Assembly: GCA_951406725.2 (NCBI GenBank)
Contig: OX597819.1
Coordinates: 16,368,001 to 16,432,000, forward strand
Length of the DNA: 64,000 nucleotides
Direction: 5' to 3'
From: Octopus vulgaris
Lineage: Eukaryota
Shown here: positions 3,400 to 44,535 of the stretch, in pieces
Layout: each line of letters opens with the position of its first letter
Numbering within the stretch: position 1 is the stretch's first letter
The notes under the pieces: generated by a model
Told to the model about the DNA's origin: nothing
Seen by the model: only the letters and a program-made list of their open reading frames with translations
Databases searched by the model: none
Position numbers and translations under genes: made by a program

Positions 3400-5420
3400 A
3401 TGCTGCTGTTGCCTTCTAGCTTACGGAATATTAACCATGCATTACTTTTTTTGCTAGTTCGATGTCTGCTTTTCCTCCAAGCTTCTGTTTAGGTAGGCCA
3501 GTCCAGCCTCCTTTGGATCGCATGAGACAGCTGTTTTCTGAGAGTACCTGCACAGTAGCTCTTCTCCAACTCTGATGATATTGTTGCTCTCATTTTTTGT
3601 AAATGCATGGAATGTACTCGTTTCTTTCTTTACTGTTCAGCAGGTGTTGCCTGAGTGATACAATGCGACATTCAAAAGGTGTTTAGGCTGACCTTATGCC
3701 TCTATCACCATCACTTCGTCTCATATAAATCATAACTGTGTCACTGTTAAATGTAGAGGTCGCCAGTTGTGGTCAGTACCTTTCTGATTTTGATGACCAG
3801 GTTGCATAGCTTATCGAGTGTCCAGTCCAATATCCCAAATGTTTACACTAGCACTGGTACTACAAAAACTGTGAGACATGGTCTTGTTAAATGCAGAGTT
3901 CCATATTTTCCAGAGTCTACAGAAGAACTCTTTTGTTATTCTGGCTTCAGTCCCAGCACCGGTGTATGCTACATTCTCATAGATTTCGGGGTAGTTGTAG
4001 CTTTCATCTTTAGAGATAGCGGAGATAGTCAAGTCATTGATGTACATGTTCTCTGTCTGGCCAACAATCCTTCCTCGGTTAACTATCTTGTAGGAGCATT
4101 TATCTTGCCCAAACTCCATTCCTATATCTTGTGTGAGAAGGTTGTGACTAGTTCTAACTGTCTCTTGATGTTGGTCATATTACCAGAATAAAAATTTGGG
4201 TTATCAACAAAAAATGTGTGAGTGACATTAATTTTATTCTTTTCTGCATATCGTAGCATGTAACCTTGGCATTTTGTTAATAGGGCTGACAGGGGATTCG
4301 TTGCCAGTACAAACAGCATTACAGATAAACTATCCCCCTGGAATATGCCTGTTGATAGCTTAATTCTGTTAAGTGTTGTTTTAGTAGTTGTCAGTGATGA
4401 GTGACGCAGAGAGTCGAACGCCTTCTTGTAGTCGAGCAATACCTTTAAGAGATTACGGCGATGTTGCTTGGCTCCCTTAAAGAGAGCTTTGTTGTGGAGG
4501 AGCTGTTCTTTCTTTCCTTCTACCTGTTCATCAGTTATCACCCCATTTGTTTGGCAGTGGTCTTGGAGAAATATATTCAGATAGCCTGTGTACAACTTGT
4601 GTGGAGGCGCAATGGCCCAGTGGTTAGGGCAGCGGACTCGCGGTCGGAGGATCGCGGTTTCGATTCCCATACCGAGCGTTGTGTTTCTTTATTGAGCGAA
4701 AACACTTAAAAAAAGCTCCACGAGGCTCCGGCAGAGGACGGTGGCGACCCCTGTTGTACTCTTTCGCCACAACTTTCTCTCACTCTTTCTTCCTGTTTCT
4801 TGAGTAACGCTGCGATTGACTGGCGACCCGTCCAGCTGGGGGGGGGGAACACATACGCCACAGAAACCGGGAAACCGGGCCCATGAGCCTGGCTAGGCTT
4901 GAAAAGGGCAACGTTTATCGTTTATAGTGTACAACTTGTACATAACATTCAAGCATGCTATGGGCCTGTAGTTTTTGGCAACATGGGTCTCTTTGTTCTT
5001 GGGAATAAGAGTGGTCCATGCAACCGTCAGCTAATCCGCTCAGCCTCCATTGTTGTTATTGAAATAGGTTCGTAAGAATTTCTCTGTAAAACGTGAGCTT
5101 TTTATACCAGTAGGCTACTATCAGGTCATTTTGAAGTGATTTTTCCATTCGGCATTTTCATAATAACCGTGTCGGGAGTGTTTCATTGGTGATGCTGTAT
5201 GTTTTGGGAAAAGCGTTTACACAGTATTCACTTGGTAGGTCGTTTAATCATGCTGCATCGCGGTTGTTTGTTTACATTCCGGATTCCTCGGCAGAATGAC
5301 TCTAGGTCTTCTTGGGGTGGAGCATTTACTGTCTTGATGGTATCGCCTTTCATACTGCGATTTACAGCTTGTGAGTTTTGGGTAAACTTACGGTTTATCA
5401 TTCTCCGTTCATGCAATTTT
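3400..5420 (-). mobile_element. Degenerate R4/Dong-like reverse transcriptase region, interrupted by a SINE
   Basis: LDYKKAFDS, GIFQGDSLSVMLFVLATNPLS, HTFFVDN and MEFGQDKC RT motifs; YRPIACLNVMYKLYT is split by the SINE. Confidence 0.85.
4601..4926 (+). mobile_element. tRNA-derived SINE with 13-bp target-site duplication
   Basis: A box GGCCCAGTGGTTAGGGC and B box GGTTTCGATTCCC. TSD GTGTACAACTTGT at 4588-4600 and 4927-4939. Confidence 0.88.
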
Positions 5421-11053: not shown

Positions 11054-11108
<55 letters not shown>

Positions 11109-11122
11109 GGTTGTTTTGTTGA

Positions 11123-11643
11123 AAATACTGATAGGACACAGGAAGTATGTCAATAGCCAGCTGGAGGAGATGTCTTCCTGGGGCTACAAGCTACAGTAGC
11201 ATCCACCCTTAAGGATTGGCCACATTTATGTGGCAAATATACTTCACGATGTCGTTTATACTTCGCTCAGAGATGTATTGCTTGTTTACACTTTTTCGAG
11301 ATCAGTGACTTTTCGTTTCGTCACTGGAAAAAGGATATATCTATTTGCATTGGGATCCACTTCACATCGACAACGGGTGATTGTCACACGCTGATGACGG
11401 GTCAATACTCAGAAACCCGGGTCCGTGTGTATCACGCCAGGTTGAAGATGGGAAGGATAACTTCCCTTTGCAAATACTGATAGGGCACAGGAAATGTGTC
11501 AATAGCCAGCTGGAGGAGATATCTTCCTGGGGCTACAAACTACAGTAGCATCCGCCCTTAAGGATTAGCCACATTTAAGTGCCAAATATACTTTACGATG
11601 TCGTGCAGCTACTGTCTATACATCGGTCAGAGATTTATTGCTT
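11123..11643 (+). mobile_element. Retrozyme/Penelope pLTR-like element with a 349-bp period (about 1.5 units)
   Basis: Direct repeats 11123-11255 and 11472-11604 flank a hammerhead; the element lies between (TA)n and (CA)n tracts. Confidence 0.75.
11377..11435 (+). ncRNA. Type I hammerhead ribozyme, intact core
   Basis: Stem I CACACG/CGTGTG (extended by GTGAT/ATCAC), CTGATGA, stem II GGGT-CAAT-ACTC, GAAA, palindromic stem III ACCCGGGT, GUC triplet (predicted cut after 11423). Confidence 0.88.
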
Positions 11644-11645
11644 AT

Positions 11646-14953: not shown

Positions 14954-16034
14954 GTGCATATAATATATATATATATATATATGTGCATATACATATATAT
15001 ATATATATATGTGCATATACATATATATATATATATATGTGCATATATATATATATATATATATATGCATATACATATATATATGCATATACATATGTAT
15101 ATATATATATACATATACATATACATATGTATATATATATATATACATGCATATACATATGTATATATATATATATATGCATATACATATGTATATATCT
15201 GTATGTATTATGTCTTCTTGTTTTATAGTTTAAAGTATTGGATACTCTAAGCGTACTCTAAATTAAAAAAAAACTCAATACTGATTATAATGTGAAAATG
15301 ATATTTATGATCAATGGTGAGTGTTAACTTCAAATTTTCGCTGATATTTATCATCAAAATCTCTCTCAAATCTCACTTGTCTGAAAGAATAGTAAAATGT
15401 TAACAGTCGGGACACATTTGATCATGGGTCTCGATGAGACATGAGACTAAACAGCAACAGCAATGATAACATATCTGGGTAGCAAAAAAGAAAAATGAAT
15501 GAAAATAGAAAATAAAGATTGGATTTACGCCGTAGAGGGAGATAACCCACAATTGGAAGATTTAATTCGGTTCACCACCGGTTTTGTCTCTTCGATATTG
15601 TTTGAAAATTTTACATATTGATATTTCATATTGGGACAAGACCAACTATATATAAGGAAAAAACAATGGCTGATTTAGCAGGCACTGGTATTATTTGATC
15701 AACGTGCGCGGTCATTTTGGAATTTAAAGTGTCCTAACTAAACACTGTATGATATTTAAACTGATTTTTATAGTCTCTTCTATTTTATAGTCTACTGAAA
15801 ATCTAAACTTTGCAAAAGGCATGAAGACCAAATTTCCTACCCTGCATCATGCACCCTGCACGAACATATCTATGAATTAACTATAATTTGAAAAGCTTTA
15901 AAGCACCATTTTTTCATTTAAAGAAGAATATTTTTTTTTTCTTTTTCCTCAAGCAGAATCTAACAGCGGAACCGGAAGTAGATATTTAGTGTTAACTGAC
16001 TCCACGTTGCTTACTCTCTATGACTTTCTTGCAG

Positions 16035-16265
16035 ACCATCGCAGTTGTTTAGAAGAGAGAGACGCTGCTATTAAAATCAACCGTGAGGAACCGAATGGTC
16101 AGACGTTTACTCCAGAATGTACCCCAAACGGTAACTACAAAAAGACCCAGTGTTATAATAATCTGTGTTGGTGTGTGGAAGAAAACACGGGGAAATCCAT
16201 ACATGCCACAGCATCCTTTAACAAGTCTGTCAACTGTGATATGAAACCAGATCGGGAAATGAAAG
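16035..16265 (+). CDS. SMOC: SMOC-like gene, internal exon encoding a thyroglobulin type-1 domain
   Basis: ttgcag| acceptor and G|gtaaac donor, phase 1-1. Encodes HRSCLEER...PECTPNGNYKKTQCYNNLCWCVEENTGKSI...VNCDMKPDREMK with the TY1 QC/CWCV motif. Confidence 0.92.
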
Positions 16266-16625
16266 GTAAACAAAAGTTCTACCCTCATCTTCATCCCCGT
16301 CTTCATTGTCGATGTTTTCATTATGTTTTTGGTATTTACTTCTTATTGTTTCCGTTATTGTATTTTCTAAATATTGCGATATTTTTGTTGTTGTTGTTAT
16401 TATGGCTTTTGTTAATGTGAAGATAATGGCGTCGCTGAGGTGGCTGTTGACATTTTTGTTGCTGTTGTTGTTATTTATCAGATTTGGTAGTACTTTTCAA
16501 GTGGTTGTTGCTGTTCCATTTGGTGCACTTTCATGTGGAGATATGCGCGCGCGCTGTGTATATTATACATACATACATATATATATATATGTATGTATGT
16601 ATATATGTATATATATATGTATGTG

Positions 16626-18479: not shown

Positions 18480-18955
18480 TTCACTTTTGGAACTTGAGGA
18501 AAGTTTTGCATATTTTTACTGTTCCACTCACAGATTGCACTTGTAATGTACGAATTGGCCGGTCGATTTCTCTTTCTGAAAATCCCAGTTTATCCAGATT
18601 CTTCTTTAAGAATCTACTAACAAAACTTTGTGATCCAATTATTATTGGTATGAATATGAATTCATAGACTGGATATAGAAGCTGGAGGTTTCGAAGCAGT
18701 TCTCCATAGATATCCTCTTTCTCTTTGACTTTCAAAGAGATATTTATCTCTGCGGGGCAGCTGATGGTACATACCTTTTCCCCTCTGCCCCAAACAACAA
18801 TATCTGGCCTGTTATGCTTACATTTGACAGAAGTTTTTATGGGAATATTCCAGCAGTATTCCTTGAGTTGGTGTTAATGAATGCGTTCCATAACAGAGGG
18901 ATTTTCTAAGTTTATTTCAGGACAGTCTTTTTTGTGGATGGCATTGTAAATGCGC
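18480..18955 (-). mobile_element. RLE-type LINE 3' fragment
   Basis: EYCWNIPIKTSVKCKHNRPDIVVW..KVKEKEDIYGELLRNLQLLYP..PIIIGS..GTVKICKTF. Confidence 0.8.
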
Positions 18956-27350: not shown

Positions 27351-27507
27351 ATTTTGGAACGGAAAGAACTCAGAAAATTTAAAAAAGACTTACGCAAACG
27401 GAAGAAAAAATCTCGCAAATGCGGACGTAATTTCTTGCGCTACTGTGATGAAGACCAGGACAAGATAATAACATTAGCGGAATTCATCGATTGTATGGGA
27501 GTAAATC
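27351..27507 (+). CDS. SMOC: SMOC-like gene, exon with basic patch and EF-hand 2
   Basis: Pyrimidine tract then gaag| acceptor; C|gtaagt donor. Encodes ILERKELRKFKKDLRKRKKKSRKCGRNFLRYCDEDQDKIITLAEFIDCMGVN. Confidence 0.92.
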
Positions 27508-27589
27508 GTAAGTATAGCGTTCTTCTTCTTCTTCTTCTTCTTCTTCTTCTTCTTCTTCTTCTTCTTTGGATCATTCCTTCCCCTTCGAC

Positions 27590-27935
27590 ATTCTACCACC
27601 CTCCTTGGAATCCTTGCTGTTCCTAACAAGGCTGTTTTCCGCAACAGTCCTGTCCTGATTGCAATTCCTCGCTTCTCAAGCAATGCATCCAACCTTTTAC
27701 TAACTGCGGTCAGTGCTCTTTTCACAACCGGTACCACTTCTACGTACCCGGTTCTCCATCGCTCTCTAATTTCTCTCTTCATCTCTTGATATTTCTTCAC
27801 TGTCTCACTTCCTTCCTCATTTACCCAGTAGTCCAACGGTGAAGCAGTGTCCGCAATAATTGCTTCGTCTTTTCTACGGCATCGATATCAGGTTTTCTAG
27901 CCACAATAAAATGGTCGCATTGGATAGTTAATATC
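27590..27935 (-). mobile_element. R4/Dong-like LINE 3' fragment in the last SMOC intron
   Basis: DITIQCDHFIVARKPDID..KYQEMKREIRERW..VEVVPVV..LLRKTALLGTARI, next to a (GAA)n tail. Confidence 0.8.
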
Positions 27936-35799: not shown

Positions 35800-35929
35800 T
35801 AATATATATATATATATATATTACACATAAATGCCTCACACTAAGAGGGACTAAGTCATTACTACCAAAATTATACTAATCATACCCAAATGCAGTTTTT
35901 CAAAGCAAGACATTTAAAAAAATGAATTT

Positions 35930-35987
35930 AGTTCTGTATCACCGTGATTTCACATTCAACTTGCGTCTTATGATCCTCAGCAGAACT
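35930..35987 (-). ncRNA. Type I hammerhead ribozyme (481-bp unit, copy 1)
   Basis: Exact reverse complement of 36433-36490. Confidence 0.8.
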
Positions 35988-36432
35988 GATTCTGAACACA
36001 TCATAAATAAACTACCAACCTTACGTAGCGAAGACGACCAGACAACTGATCACTCCGGCCAAGCACATGGAATGTTTATAAATCATATATCCGGTAAATG
36101 GCGGGCTTTTTACGAACTGCATGTCGGGTAATAAAAAGTATTTCGGAATAAGTTTAACAATTAAGGATAACCTCTTAATAAGGAATCTTAACAAGAAATT
36201 ATCGGGTAGTTAGCGTGAAAACCTCATAAAAGAAAAGAATTCGAAAATAATTTTTTTCTTTTGAACAAATTAATTATATCTATATTGTATAGAGGGCATT
36301 ATTACACATAAATGCCTCACACTAAGAGGGACTAAGTCATTACTACCAAAATTATACTAATCATACCCAAATGCAGTTTTTCAAAGCAAGACATTTAAAA
36401 AAAGACATTTTATTTATGATGTGTTCAGAATC

Positions 36433-36490
36433 AGTTCTGCTGAGGATCATAAGACGCAAGTTGAATGTGAAATCACGGTGATACAGAACT
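36433..36490 (+). ncRNA. Type I hammerhead ribozyme (copy 2)
   Basis: Stem I AGTTCTG/CAGAACT, CTGAGGA, stem II CAT..GAC-GCAA-GTT..ATG, GAAA, stem III ATCAC-G-GTGAT, AUA triplet (predicted cut after 36483). Confidence 0.8.
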
Positions 36491-36913
36491 AAATTCATTT
36501 TTTTAAATGTCTTGCTTTGAAAAACTGCATTTGGGTATGATTAGTATAATTTTGGTAGTAATGACTTAGTCCCTCTTAGTGTGAGGCATTTATGTGTTTT
36601 AATGCCCTCTATACAATATAGATATAATTAATTTGTTCAAAAGAAAAAAATTATTTTCGAATTCTTTTCTTTTATGAGGTTTTCACGCTAACTACCCGAT
36701 AATTTCTTGTTAAGATTCCTTATTAAGAGGTTATCCTTAATTGTTAAACTTATTCCGAAATACTTTTTATTACCCGACATGCAGTTCGTAAAAAGCCCGC
36801 CATTTACCGGATATATGATTTATAAACATTCCATGTGCTTGGCCGGAGTGATCAGTTGTCTGGTCGTCTTCGCTACGTAAGGTTGGTAGTTTATTTATGA
36901 TGTGTTCAGAATC

Positions 36914-36971
36914 AGTTCTGCTGAGGATCATAAGACGCAAGTTGAATGTGAAATCACGGTGATACAGAACT
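36914..36971 (+). ncRNA. Type I hammerhead ribozyme (copy 3)
   Basis: Identical motif exactly 481 nt downstream of copy 2. Confidence 0.8.
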
Positions 36972-37229
36972 AAATTCATTTTTTTAAATTTCTTGCTTTG
37001 AAAAACTGCATTTGGGTATGATTAGTATAATTTTGGTAGTAATGACTTAGTCCCTCTTAGTGTGAGGCATTTATGTGTAATAATGCCCTCTATACAATAT
37101 AGATATAATTAATTTGTTCAAAAGAAAAAAATTATTTTCGAATTCTTTTCTTTTATGAGGTTTTCACGCTAACTACCCGATAATTTCTTGTTAAGATTCC
37201 TTATTAAGAGGTTATCCTTAATTGTTAAA

Positions 37230-37310
<81 letters not shown>

Positions 37311-38230: not shown

Positions 38231-38492
38231 TCTCAAATCTAATCAACGGTCTGGCGATTATTTCGAGTAAAGTGAATATCTGAAATGTTTGGTTGAAATT
38301 ATGATCCTAAAACGAAAAATTCAATAAACAGTTTCCACATGGAAATCAAAGATGAGGATTTTTCTGATGATTTGTGAAGGATGATGAGTTTGGTCGCTGG
38401 TTCATACGGTGATAACTCCGAACATATTATTTATATATGTGTGCGCGCGAACGCATACACACACATATGTATGTCTGTATATATATATATAT

Positions 38493-38735
38493 ATATTAAT
38501 AAATGAAATAAAACATATGCATATATATAAACATATATGTACGTACCTACCTCTACATGTACATATACACTCATATATGAGTACAGGACACCTTGTGTCT
38601 ATGTTTTCGTTTCTCTTTGTGTTCGACGTCCCTTTGGTGTCCTGTACTCATATATGCGTGTATATGTACATGTAGAGGTAGGTACGTACATATATGTTTA
38701 TATATATGCATATGTTCTATTTCATTTATTAATAT
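38493..38735. repeat. Inverted repeat, about 100-bp arms with 43-bp spacer, at a (TA)n tract
   Basis: 38493-38592 is the reverse complement of 38636-38735 with about two mismatches. Confidence 0.88.
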
Positions 38736-38766
38736 ATTATATGACAAAACGCACGCACCCCCTTAA

Positions 38767-43635: not shown

Positions 43636-44535
43636 CTATGATTTGATGGCGTCCCACAATTCCTGCAGCAGAGAAGCATGGTATGCCCCGTTAATTATGG
43701 TGCCCTTTGCCAGAATATCTATCATCACTACTCTGTGCTGGTCCCAAAAGACTGTGAGCATCACCTTGCCTGCTGAGGATTGGACATGAGCCTTCTTTGG
43801 AAGTGGTGAGTTATTATGCCTCCATTGCTTCGACTGGACTTTAGCGTCAGGATCATACAGATGGACCCATATTTCCTCCTGTGTGATAAGTCTGTCGAAA
43901 AAGTTCTCCTCCTTTTCTTGGCACAAAGTTCTCCTCCTTTTCTTGCCAAAAGAGCCTGGGAGCAATTGACTCGTTCTTGCTTCAGAAAAGATGTGAGCAT
44001 CCGGGGAATCTATCGTGTAGACAACTTCCGCATGTGTAAATGTTCGTAAATGATTTTTTTCCACAGACCCTACGCATATCTTCATTTCTTGGGCTAGGTG
44101 CCCAATAGTTATACGGTGATCCTCCAAACTGGTGGATTCCGCTTTATGGATGGTGTCGTCATTAATGGCGGAATGTGGTCGTCCAGGAATAGGAGCACTA
44201 TCCACCGATGTCCGACCATATTTGAACTGGTGATGCCAGTGCTTGACTACGTCGTATGGTGGTGCATCGTCACCATAAACTTCTTTCATCTCATCGAAAA
44301 TCTCTTTTGGTGTACGACCTTTCAAGTATAAAAACCTGATCACTGATCTGCATTCAACAGCCATCGTTATAACACCTTAATCCACTTCAGCACCGTAAAA
44401 GACAAACAAATACAAGTGAAAAGCTGCAAATCACAATATGACATGTAAAGACATATAATTATACCTGTACAAGTTCCGTTTCCTGCAATAAACGGAAGTG
44501 GGTCAGAAGAAATCTTTAATGGATACCTCTCGCTT
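43636..44535 (-). pseudogene. Mariner (Mos1/SETMAR-type) transposase pseudogene, 3'-truncated
   Basis: RSVIRFLYLKGRTPKEIFDEMKEVYGDDAP..W..F..GR..GRP HTH; FFDRLITQEEIWVHLYDP..QSKQW..SAGKVMLTVFWD. Frameshifted, with a 25-bp internal duplication near 43900-43945; TIR-like end near 44500-44533. Confidence 0.92.

What the first reader, a model, noticed from the sequence alone, without database searches (positions are those of the whole stretch)
35820..37233. Young 481-bp unit in tandem and inverted array with three identical hammerheads
Seen: near-identical copies, with two same-strand HHRs exactly 481 nt apart (predicted cuts after 36483 and 36964) and a third on the opposite strand; (TA)n on both sides; a short AAGACATTT duplication at the inversion junction. 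Inference: transcription would release a unit-length 481-nt RNA able to circularise and would also form long dsRNA. The partial-tandem plus inverted layout is the known Penelope insertion signature, here without coding sequence.
Basis: partly seen in the sequence, partly recalled or inferred. Interest (0 to 1): 0.75.

Follow-up and report, generated by a model that had tools for sequence, protein, structure and literature searches.

The report
Penelope-inserted hammerhead retrozyme, two fixed ends
This is one of a few hundred recent copies of a 481-base non-coding repeat carrying a predicted self-cutting RNA motif, a new member of a known kind of jumping element (retrozymes), and its back-to-back copies almost always pair one long with one short fixed end, as a Penelope-like retrotransposon in the same genome does, which likely marks that retrotransposon as the copier.

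Summary
In detail: two head-to-head arms (1.2 and 1.7 units of 481 nt), three identical type I hammerhead motifs, (TA)n flanks and a slippage duplication at the junction. It is not an assembly artefact: the genome holds 351 exact cut-site motifs in dispersed arrays of up to 7.5 units. The 3' ends sit at two fixed unit positions (A about u269, B about u135). Of 60 A-ended insertions on C1-C8, 41 are inverted; 40 of these end in the B zone and none at A. A young, intact Penelope-like element in this genome shows the same one-long-one-short rule (13 of 13), and its long-end 14-mer matches the unit best exactly at A (11/14). Seven of 41 insertions have mutually non-nested arms, so both arms were likely copied from RNA (twin priming). 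A circular template is plausible but not shown, and arrays also show later unit exchange. Cleavage and expression are untested; at this locus the antisense arm would likely trap one ribozyme in read-through RNA. Verdict: new member of non-LTR retrozymes. This scan already noted the same two-ended pattern for other families in this genome.

The parts
35805..35822 (.). left (TA)n target remnant, next to an (AAT)n tract; overlaps the arm end by a few bases
35819..36403 (-). inverted 'B' arm, 1.2 units (u15 through u481, then u1 to u118); its 3' end is about 19 nt short of the family's B end (u133-137)
35930..35987 (-). type I hammerhead motif 3; predicted cut at A17 = 35937
36404..36408 (+). 5-nt templated junction insert (GACAT), part of the AAGACATTT slippage duplication (36388-36396 / 36402-36410)
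36409..37234 (+). forward 'A' arm, 1.72 units (u407 to u270), ending at the family's fixed A end
36433..36490 (+). type I hammerhead motif 1: 7-bp stem I, CUGAGGA, U10.1-U11.1 mismatch, stem II with internal loop and GCAA loop, GAAA, 4-bp near-palindromic stem III, AUA; predicted cut after 36483
36484..36964 (+). 481-nt cut-to-cut monomer; no ORF over 83 codons on either strand of the circle; circular fold -120.6 kcal/mol, z -5.7
36914..36971 (+). type I hammerhead motif 2; predicted cut after 36964
37097..37101 (+). family B end (u133-137), inside the small CTATA-CAA-TATAG hairpin; passed through in this arm
37220..37233 (+). 14 nt before the A end (u256-269); the only site in the unit matching the long end of the resident Penelope-like element at 10 or more of 14 (11/14)
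37232..37285 (.). right (TA)27 target remnant

Best explanation
The locus is one young insertion of a dispersed, non-coding 481-nt repeat family with a predicted type I hammerhead (a non-LTR retrozyme), likely copied into a (TA)n microsatellite by the protein of a resident Penelope-like element that primed reverse transcription from both ends of the target break at two fixed sites of the RNA. Shown: the family, its (TA)n targets, the two fixed 3' ends and their one-of-each pairing, and an intact Penelope-like ORF with the same footprint. Inferred: (1) tandem units are transcribed, cut at AUA, probably as dimeric ribozymes, and ligated to a 481-nt circle; (2) the Penelope protein, probably a dimer, nicks both strands of (TA)n; (3) one reverse transcriptase starts at A (u269) and the other at B (u135), each running across the cut site for a variable distance, about 0.3-0.5 survival per lap; (4) the two cDNA ends join by short microhomology, here after a 5-nt slippage; (5) arrays later exchange or duplicate units.
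For: Family: 206 matches in 40 scored of 1677 candidates; 351 exact cut-site motifs. Fixed ends into (TA)n (130 A and 221 B exact junctions; the B count includes sister families). On C1-C8, 23 of 23 outward-facing end pairs are A+B. Of all 60 A-ended sites listed for C1-C8, 41 have an opposite arm: 40 end in the B zone (u105-150, this locus included), 1 elsewhere, 0 at A. In 7 of 41 neither arm is contained in the other, so neither can be a fold-back copy of the other. Penelope-like element: 1312-aa ORF, 4592-bp tandem period, hammerhead-like motif upstream, RT-like and GIY-YIG-like motifs by inspection, nearest named Atlas clusters carry HTH_animal/GIY-YIG/RVT_1 at score 0.96-0.97, several 1310-1312-aa frames. 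Its ends lie at ATG+26 and ATG+79 to +85, one of each in 13 of 13 inverted copies with both ends in view among 15 loci. Its long-end 14-mer matches the unit best at u269, 11/14, the only site at 10 or more. Ribozyme: 133 of 135 complete copies keep the core while N7 is C, G or U; 11 sister-family hammerheads (about 75% identity) keep stems I and II with different sequences. Continuous template: 32 of 60 A arms cross the cut site, 15 of 60 twice, only 2 of 60 stop at it; all 124 junction 38-mers keep AUA-CAGAAC. Haplotypes are all-or-none within a locus in 190 of 197 cases; 4 of 6 locus-private fixed variants are in both arms, two of them in all 6 covering copies at L040.
Against: No cleavage, circle or transcript is shown. 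The catalytic fold is not the predicted minimum (-9.5 against -14.4 kcal/mol), and 8 of 9 Xenopus retrozyme dimers did not cleave in vitro (bioRxiv 10.64898/2026.07.22.740005). In the anole Penelope-like element, hammerhead cleavage was not needed for insertion in vitro (PMC11167929). In 19 of 41 inverted copies the two arms stop within 10 nt of the same unit position, which fits cDNA fold-back, and L051 has two variants mirrored only in the junction-proximal lap. Eight of 9 inspected loci carry variants in a subset of their units (some in A-runs or CpG), which points to unit duplication or conversion after insertion and weakens array length as evidence for rolling. The unit has no extended similarity to the Penelope element's repeats, the short-end 10-mer match is poor (7/10), the 14-mer length was chosen after seeing the ends, and other Penelope clades were not searched. 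This locus's left end is about 19 nt off the B site.
Confidence: 0.6

Rival explanations
1. Same family and same Penelope-like mobiliser, but the template is an uncut linear read-through transcript of an array; long arrays grow after insertion by unequal exchange, and the hammerhead only trims transcripts or is a passenger.
For: Uncut RNA was the dominant substrate for the anole element in vitro (PMC11167929). Variants shared by adjacent or periodic units in 8 loci, for example L066 and L060. Li et al. invoke satellite-type expansion.
Against: Every subfamily haplotype is fixed across all units and both arms (190 of 197), so each new variant passed a monomer bottleneck. Array length does not rise with within-locus divergence (rho -0.12, p 0.46). 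The 5.3-unit L065 array has no internal substitution yet a fixed rare variant. The core is conserved across families.
Confidence: 0.25
2. Single priming at one site followed by cDNA fold-back or self-priming; the second end is set by endonuclease cleavage at the other site, as proposed for Penelope palindromes.
For: 19 of 41 inverted copies have both arms stopping within 10 nt of one position (p about 1e-15), several at natural hairpins. 28 of 41 B arms are contained in the A arm. Mirrored variants at L051. Arkhipova et al. 2013 (PMC3846280) read palindromic junctions as self-priming; Craig et al. 2021 (PMC8557442) ascribe the tail to endonuclease resolution.
Against: 7 of 41 have mutually non-nested arms, and in 6 of 41 the A arm is the nested one. 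Both 'tail' ends are reverse-transcription start sites in vitro for the anole element. Equal stopping points also follow if two enzymes stop at one RNA break. Both routes may operate.
Confidence: 0.2
3. The inversion is a chimeric-read or assembly artefact.
For: No listed contig piece bridges the junction by 31 nt on both sides in the 4 runs laid.
Against: The arms start at different unit positions (u15, u407), end at different sites and differ in sequence, unlike a fold-back read. 41 of 60 comparable loci are inverted by the same rule. Run X3 has depth 34.5 over the junction-only bases 36404-36407.
Confidence: 0.02

Closest known systems
Animal non-LTR retrozymes (Cervera and de la Pena 2020, PMC7229834, parts 2-4 of 6 and passages read; Li, Clavereau and Pollet 2026, bioRxiv 10.64898/2026.07.22.740005, parts 1-3 of 5 read, supplements closed)
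   Same: Non-coding, low-GC tandem units with one type I hammerhead each, stable self-pairing, coexistence with Penelope-like elements. The U-U mismatch at the base of stem II is also in axolotl HHR_Amex2. Unit length lies within the 51-972 bp range of Li et al.
   Different: 481 nt is above the 150-450 bp of the 2020 paper. In the parts I read neither paper describes fixed 3' ends, inverted two-armed insertions or (TA)n targeting ('inverted' occurs 0 times in PMC7229834). Li et al. link retrozymes to Penelope by pLTR homology; here the link is by footprint and a short end motif. Circles and cleavage are shown there, not here.
Insertions of endonuclease-bearing Penelope-like elements with pseudo-LTR, inverted 5'-truncated copy and 'tail' (Arkhipova et al. 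2013, PMC3846280, passages; Craig et al. 2021, PMC8557442, passages)
   Same: Partial tandem plus head-to-head inverted copy, tail at one end only, microsatellite targets, palindromic junctions; Craig et al. also note non-autonomous Chlamys elements with multicopy head-to-tail insertions.
   Different: No ORF. The tail is about 133 nt rather than 30-40 (56 nt in the resident element). The papers say 'often' or 'optionally' at one end; here the count is 40 of 41, with none long-long.
Anole Poseidon element PAc (Frangieh et al. 2024, PMC11167929, parts 1-2 of 4 read)
   Same: Two internal reverse-transcription start sites bounding the tail, AT-rich targets, both strands cut and extended, predicted protein dimer.
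   Different: They saw no strand difference in start site in vitro and found hammerhead cleavage dispensable. The genomic pattern here requires the two ends of one insertion to use different sites.
L1 twin priming (recalled, no call)
   Same: Both target ends prime cDNA, giving a head-to-head inversion joined by microhomology.
   Different: In L1 the second site is variable and the first cDNA stops near it; here the second site is fixed and the A arm's 5' end does not track B.

Membership tests
Type I hammerhead ribozyme | core C3 U4 G5 A6 N7 G8 A9 ... G12 A13 A14 A15, U16 H17 | tested here: met
   CUGAGGA...GAAA...UA; 133 of 135 copies keep the core
Type I hammerhead ribozyme | stems I-III, stem I open, supported by covariation | tested here: met
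   7-bp stem I, 4-bp stem III; 11 sister rows with different sequences pair 4-6 of 7 in stem I, and 10 of 11 pair the first 4 of stem II; no formal covariation statistic
Type I hammerhead ribozyme | paired 10.1-11.1 at the base of stem II | tested here: not met
   U-U mismatch; a known tolerated natural variant (PMC3088659; PMC7229834)
Type I hammerhead ribozyme | match to an Rfam hammerhead model | tested here: not met
Type I hammerhead ribozyme | self-cleavage | not testable with these tools
   needs an assay; catalytic fold is 4.9 kcal/mol above the predicted minimum
Non-LTR retrozyme | non-coding tandem units of a few hundred bp, one type I hammerhead per unit, GC under 50% | tested here: met
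   481 nt, 33% GC, longest stop-free frame 83 codons; arrays up to 7.5 units
Non-LTR retrozyme | dispersed and mobile | tested here: met
   hits on many contigs at 96-100% identity; several haplotypes
Non-LTR retrozyme | expressed as a unit-length circular RNA | tested here: inconclusive
   a 509-nt contig in run X8 (RNA is a guess) spans one unit across the cut; contigs cannot tell circle, multimer or DNA, and no silent control was laid
Non-autonomous Penelope-like element | partial tandem, inverted 5'-truncated copy, tail at one end | tested here: met
Non-autonomous Penelope-like element | sequence homology to the pseudo-LTR of an autonomous element | tested here: inconclusive
   no extended match to 35 Penelope loci of one clade; only an 11/14 end motif; none of the 60 A-ended sites is joined to an RT or endonuclease frame of that clade as its own body; other clades not searched
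Non-autonomous Penelope-like element | mobilisation in trans by the Penelope protein | not testable with these tools
   inferred from the shared footprint

The most novel reading that the evidence does not exclude
These insertions are the genomic record of an asymmetric Penelope dimer that primes both ends of a (TA)n break at two fixed sites of one 481-nt RNA circle and rolls. The retrozyme recruits a specific resident element through a short mimic of its long-end start signal rather than by descent from its pseudo-LTR. This would explain the Penelope tail, the inverted copy and the partial tandem in one mechanism, and give a defined RNA-protein pair to test it.
Probability: 0.35. Interest if true: 0.68.

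Novelty: new member of a known kind. Interest (0 to 1): 0.42.

Why it matters
How Penelope-like elements make their tandem and inverted insertions, and which enzyme moves animal retrozymes, are stated as open in the papers read. This family and the intact 1312-aa element supply a concrete pair, with predicted start sites to within a few bases, for the in vitro assay of Frangieh et al. The class itself is known, and this scan has already noted the two-ended footprint for other families in this genome, so the locus adds a further family and counts rather than a new kind of system.

Tried and rejected
Rfam: nothing at gathering; at E<=10 only hairpin-driven miRNA and snoRNA hits far below threshold, rejected. 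Coding unit: longest frames 62-83 codons, rejected. Derivation from the resident Penelope pseudo-LTR: no extended match. Pfam and PDB gave no hit for the Penelope ORF; the Atlas did. A second Penelope subfamily (L035) looks old and heterogeneous, so I did not pursue it as partner. Linear cut monomer as the main template: only 2 of 60 A arms stop at the cut, rejected as the main route. L1-style junction rule (A arm stops at B): not seen. Mirror-variant test for fold-back: positive in 1 of 11 loci inspected, otherwise uninformative. RNA: 3 of 8 guessed-RNA runs were laid and covered 12-16 of 30 bins; weak. Presence/absence: junction bases had depth in X3 only and 0 in X1, X5 and X2, compatible with polymorphism, but a hole in contigs proves nothing. 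No target-site duplication is discernible inside (TA)n. Literature searches found no paper on this family or on fixed-site twin priming by Penelope elements; some searches were seen as listings only, and no supplement was read, so Frangieh Fig. S1-S2, Cervera Fig. S9 and the closed Li et al. tables may bear on this. PMC13282606 (passages) lists recently active Penelope families in an octopus; I did not check its library.

Full report
Observation. The structure is as described. With u1 = 36484, the left arm (35819-36403, minus) runs u15 through u481 and on to u118, and the right arm (36409-37234, plus) runs u407 to u270, so the arms are head to head with both 3' ends in (TA)n. The three hammerhead motifs are identical, and the copies differ only at u26 and u115-116. 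The junction holds 5 extra bases, best read as slippage of the left cDNA followed by annealing on a T/A run (inference).

Ribozyme. Rfam misses it. By descriptor it is type I: 7-bp stem I, CUGAGGA, stem II opening with U-U, GAAA, a 4-bp near-palindromic stem III, and AUA. The U-U variant is known (PMC3088659; axolotl), and weak palindromic stems III work as dimers (PMC4209133, passages). Of 135 complete copies in 40 loci, 133 keep the core while N7 is C, G or U. Sister families at about 75% identity (349 pattern hits; 30 loci read) gave 11 distinct hammerheads with different but paired stems, several with U4 changed. The catalytic fold is not the predicted minimum (-9.5 against -14.4 kcal/mol). 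The unit as a circle folds at z -5.7 in sense and -2.3 in antisense against 40 shuffles. Activity is untested.

Family. The 2.8-Gb genome (octopus-like by inference from its make-up; earlier scan notes say octopus) gave 206 matches in 40 scored of 1677 candidates and 351 exact cut-site motifs. In 38 best-hit loci plus the window, 3' ends fall at A (u269-270) or B (u133-137), running into (TA)n, while 5' ends vary. Exact junction patterns count 130 A and 221 B ends (B includes sister families, and mutated junctions are missed). On C1-C8, 23 of 23 outward-facing pairs are A+B, and one further pair is a same-strand B-B. I then took all 60 A ends listed for C1-C8 (15 already held, 45 fetched): 41 have an opposite arm, 40 ending in the B zone, 1 elsewhere, none at A. 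This locus is among the 40 but ends about 19 nt short of B, at a TAATA that resembles the target; alternative priming and later deletion cannot be told apart.

Likely mobiliser. A GIY-YIG-like remnant beside L062 led to a young family with many near-identical hits. L089 holds a 1312-aa ORF in a 4592-bp tandem period, with a hammerhead-like motif 135 nt before the ATG. Pfam and PDB do not name it; Atlas neighbours carry HTH_animal, GIY-YIG and RVT_1. The Cys linker suggests the Neptune clade (recalled motif; clade description). Its insertions end in (TA)n at ATG+26 or ATG+79 to +85, one of each in 13 of 13 inverted copies with both ends in view; of the 15 loci, one was cut by the fetch and one is not inverted. 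Its long-end 14-mer matches the unit best at u269 (11/14, the only site at 10 or more), whereas the short-end 10-mer reaches only 7/10. There is no extended homology. A related subfamily looks old; other clades were not searched.

Mechanism of the inversion. In 7 of 41 inverted loci neither arm is contained in the other, so both must have been copied from RNA; in 28 the B arm and in 6 the A arm is the nested one. This favours priming from both target ends at two fixed sites, in line with the two start sites and predicted dimer of the anole element. Against a single route, 19 of 41 have both arms stopping within 10 nt of one position, and L051 has mirrored variants, as fold-back would give. Two enzymes halting at one RNA break would give the same stopping pattern.

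Circle or multimer. 32 of 60 A arms cross the cut site, 15 twice, and 2 stop at it; 115 of 124 junction 38-mers are identical and the other 9 keep AUA-CAGAAC. So the template is continuous across the cut. Diagnostic alleles are all-or-none within a locus in 190 of 197 cases; the 7 exceptions lie in L053, L054 (two adjacent insertions) and L067. Four of 6 locus-private fixed variants are in both arms. Array length is unrelated to internal divergence (rho -0.12). This implies a monomer bottleneck, as rolling on a circle gives (proposed). But 8 of 9 loci inspected share variants among a subset of units, so units are also exchanged or duplicated after insertion, and a linear read-through template with later expansion is not excluded. 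RNA evidence is weak: contigs of guessed-RNA runs, one spanning a full unit across the cut.

This copy as a source. A plus-strand read-through would make the single antisense hammerhead first, and it can pair with motif 2 (pair I1) or motif 1 (pair I3). Long dsRNA and monomer release therefore compete; the minus strand carries only one hammerhead. The copy is likely a product rather than a source unless transcription starts inside it (inference).

Verdict. Real, young, and a new member of the animal non-LTR retrozymes with a Penelope-type footprint. One-sided tails and two start sites are in print; the strict pairing, the non-nested arms and the end motif shared with a named partner were not in the passages I read or the searches listed under Tried and rejected. 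Earlier scan notes report the same two-ended pattern for other families here; I had reached that reading before the first look-up, and they are not independent support.

Noticed in passing
window 11106-11645: A second retrozyme-like element after (TA)n: partial tandem with a period of about 355 bp and a type I hammerhead-like motif at 11391. A different family from the 481-nt unit.
   Followed up: no
L062:2457-7742, L064:3565-3596, L172:2029-3726: LINE insertions inside the unit at u371-394 with 6-19-bp duplications and a shared 3' end; the L062 copy has a 495-aa frame and a 1133-aa endonuclease-RT frame. Three hits in one 25-nt stretch suggest site preference for the retrozyme.
   Followed up: partly
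L089 (G000:C5:115839500-115849400) and relatives: Intact Penelope-like element, 1312-aa ORF with a long Asn-rich insert, copies mostly 96-99.9% identical, tandem period 4592 bp.
   Followed up: yes
L104-L133: Older sister families (about 75% identity, tandem spacing near 472 bp) with the same two ends and G-C at 10.1-11.1; several copies read CCGA in the core.
   Followed up: partly
window 15902-16420: Exon with a thyroglobulin type-1 repeat (PF00086, E 2e-14), SMOC-like by recall; whether the element lies in an intron of this gene was not checked.
   Followed up: no
window 38491-38737: 102-nt inverted repeat, 98% complementary, 43-nt spacer, between TA tracts; no hammerhead core seen by the descriptor scan.
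   Followed up: no
window 43636-44376; 4122-4688; 18481-18873; 27474-27887: Frames that look like a mariner transposase fragment and LINE RT or endonuclease fragments (names recalled, not scanned).
   Followed up: no
L046, L141, L177: 5' ends at u479 next to (TA)n, that is at the predicted cut within the ATA microhomology; possibly copies of cleaved linear RNA, but 2 of 60 in the unbiased set is too few to tell.
   Followed up: partly
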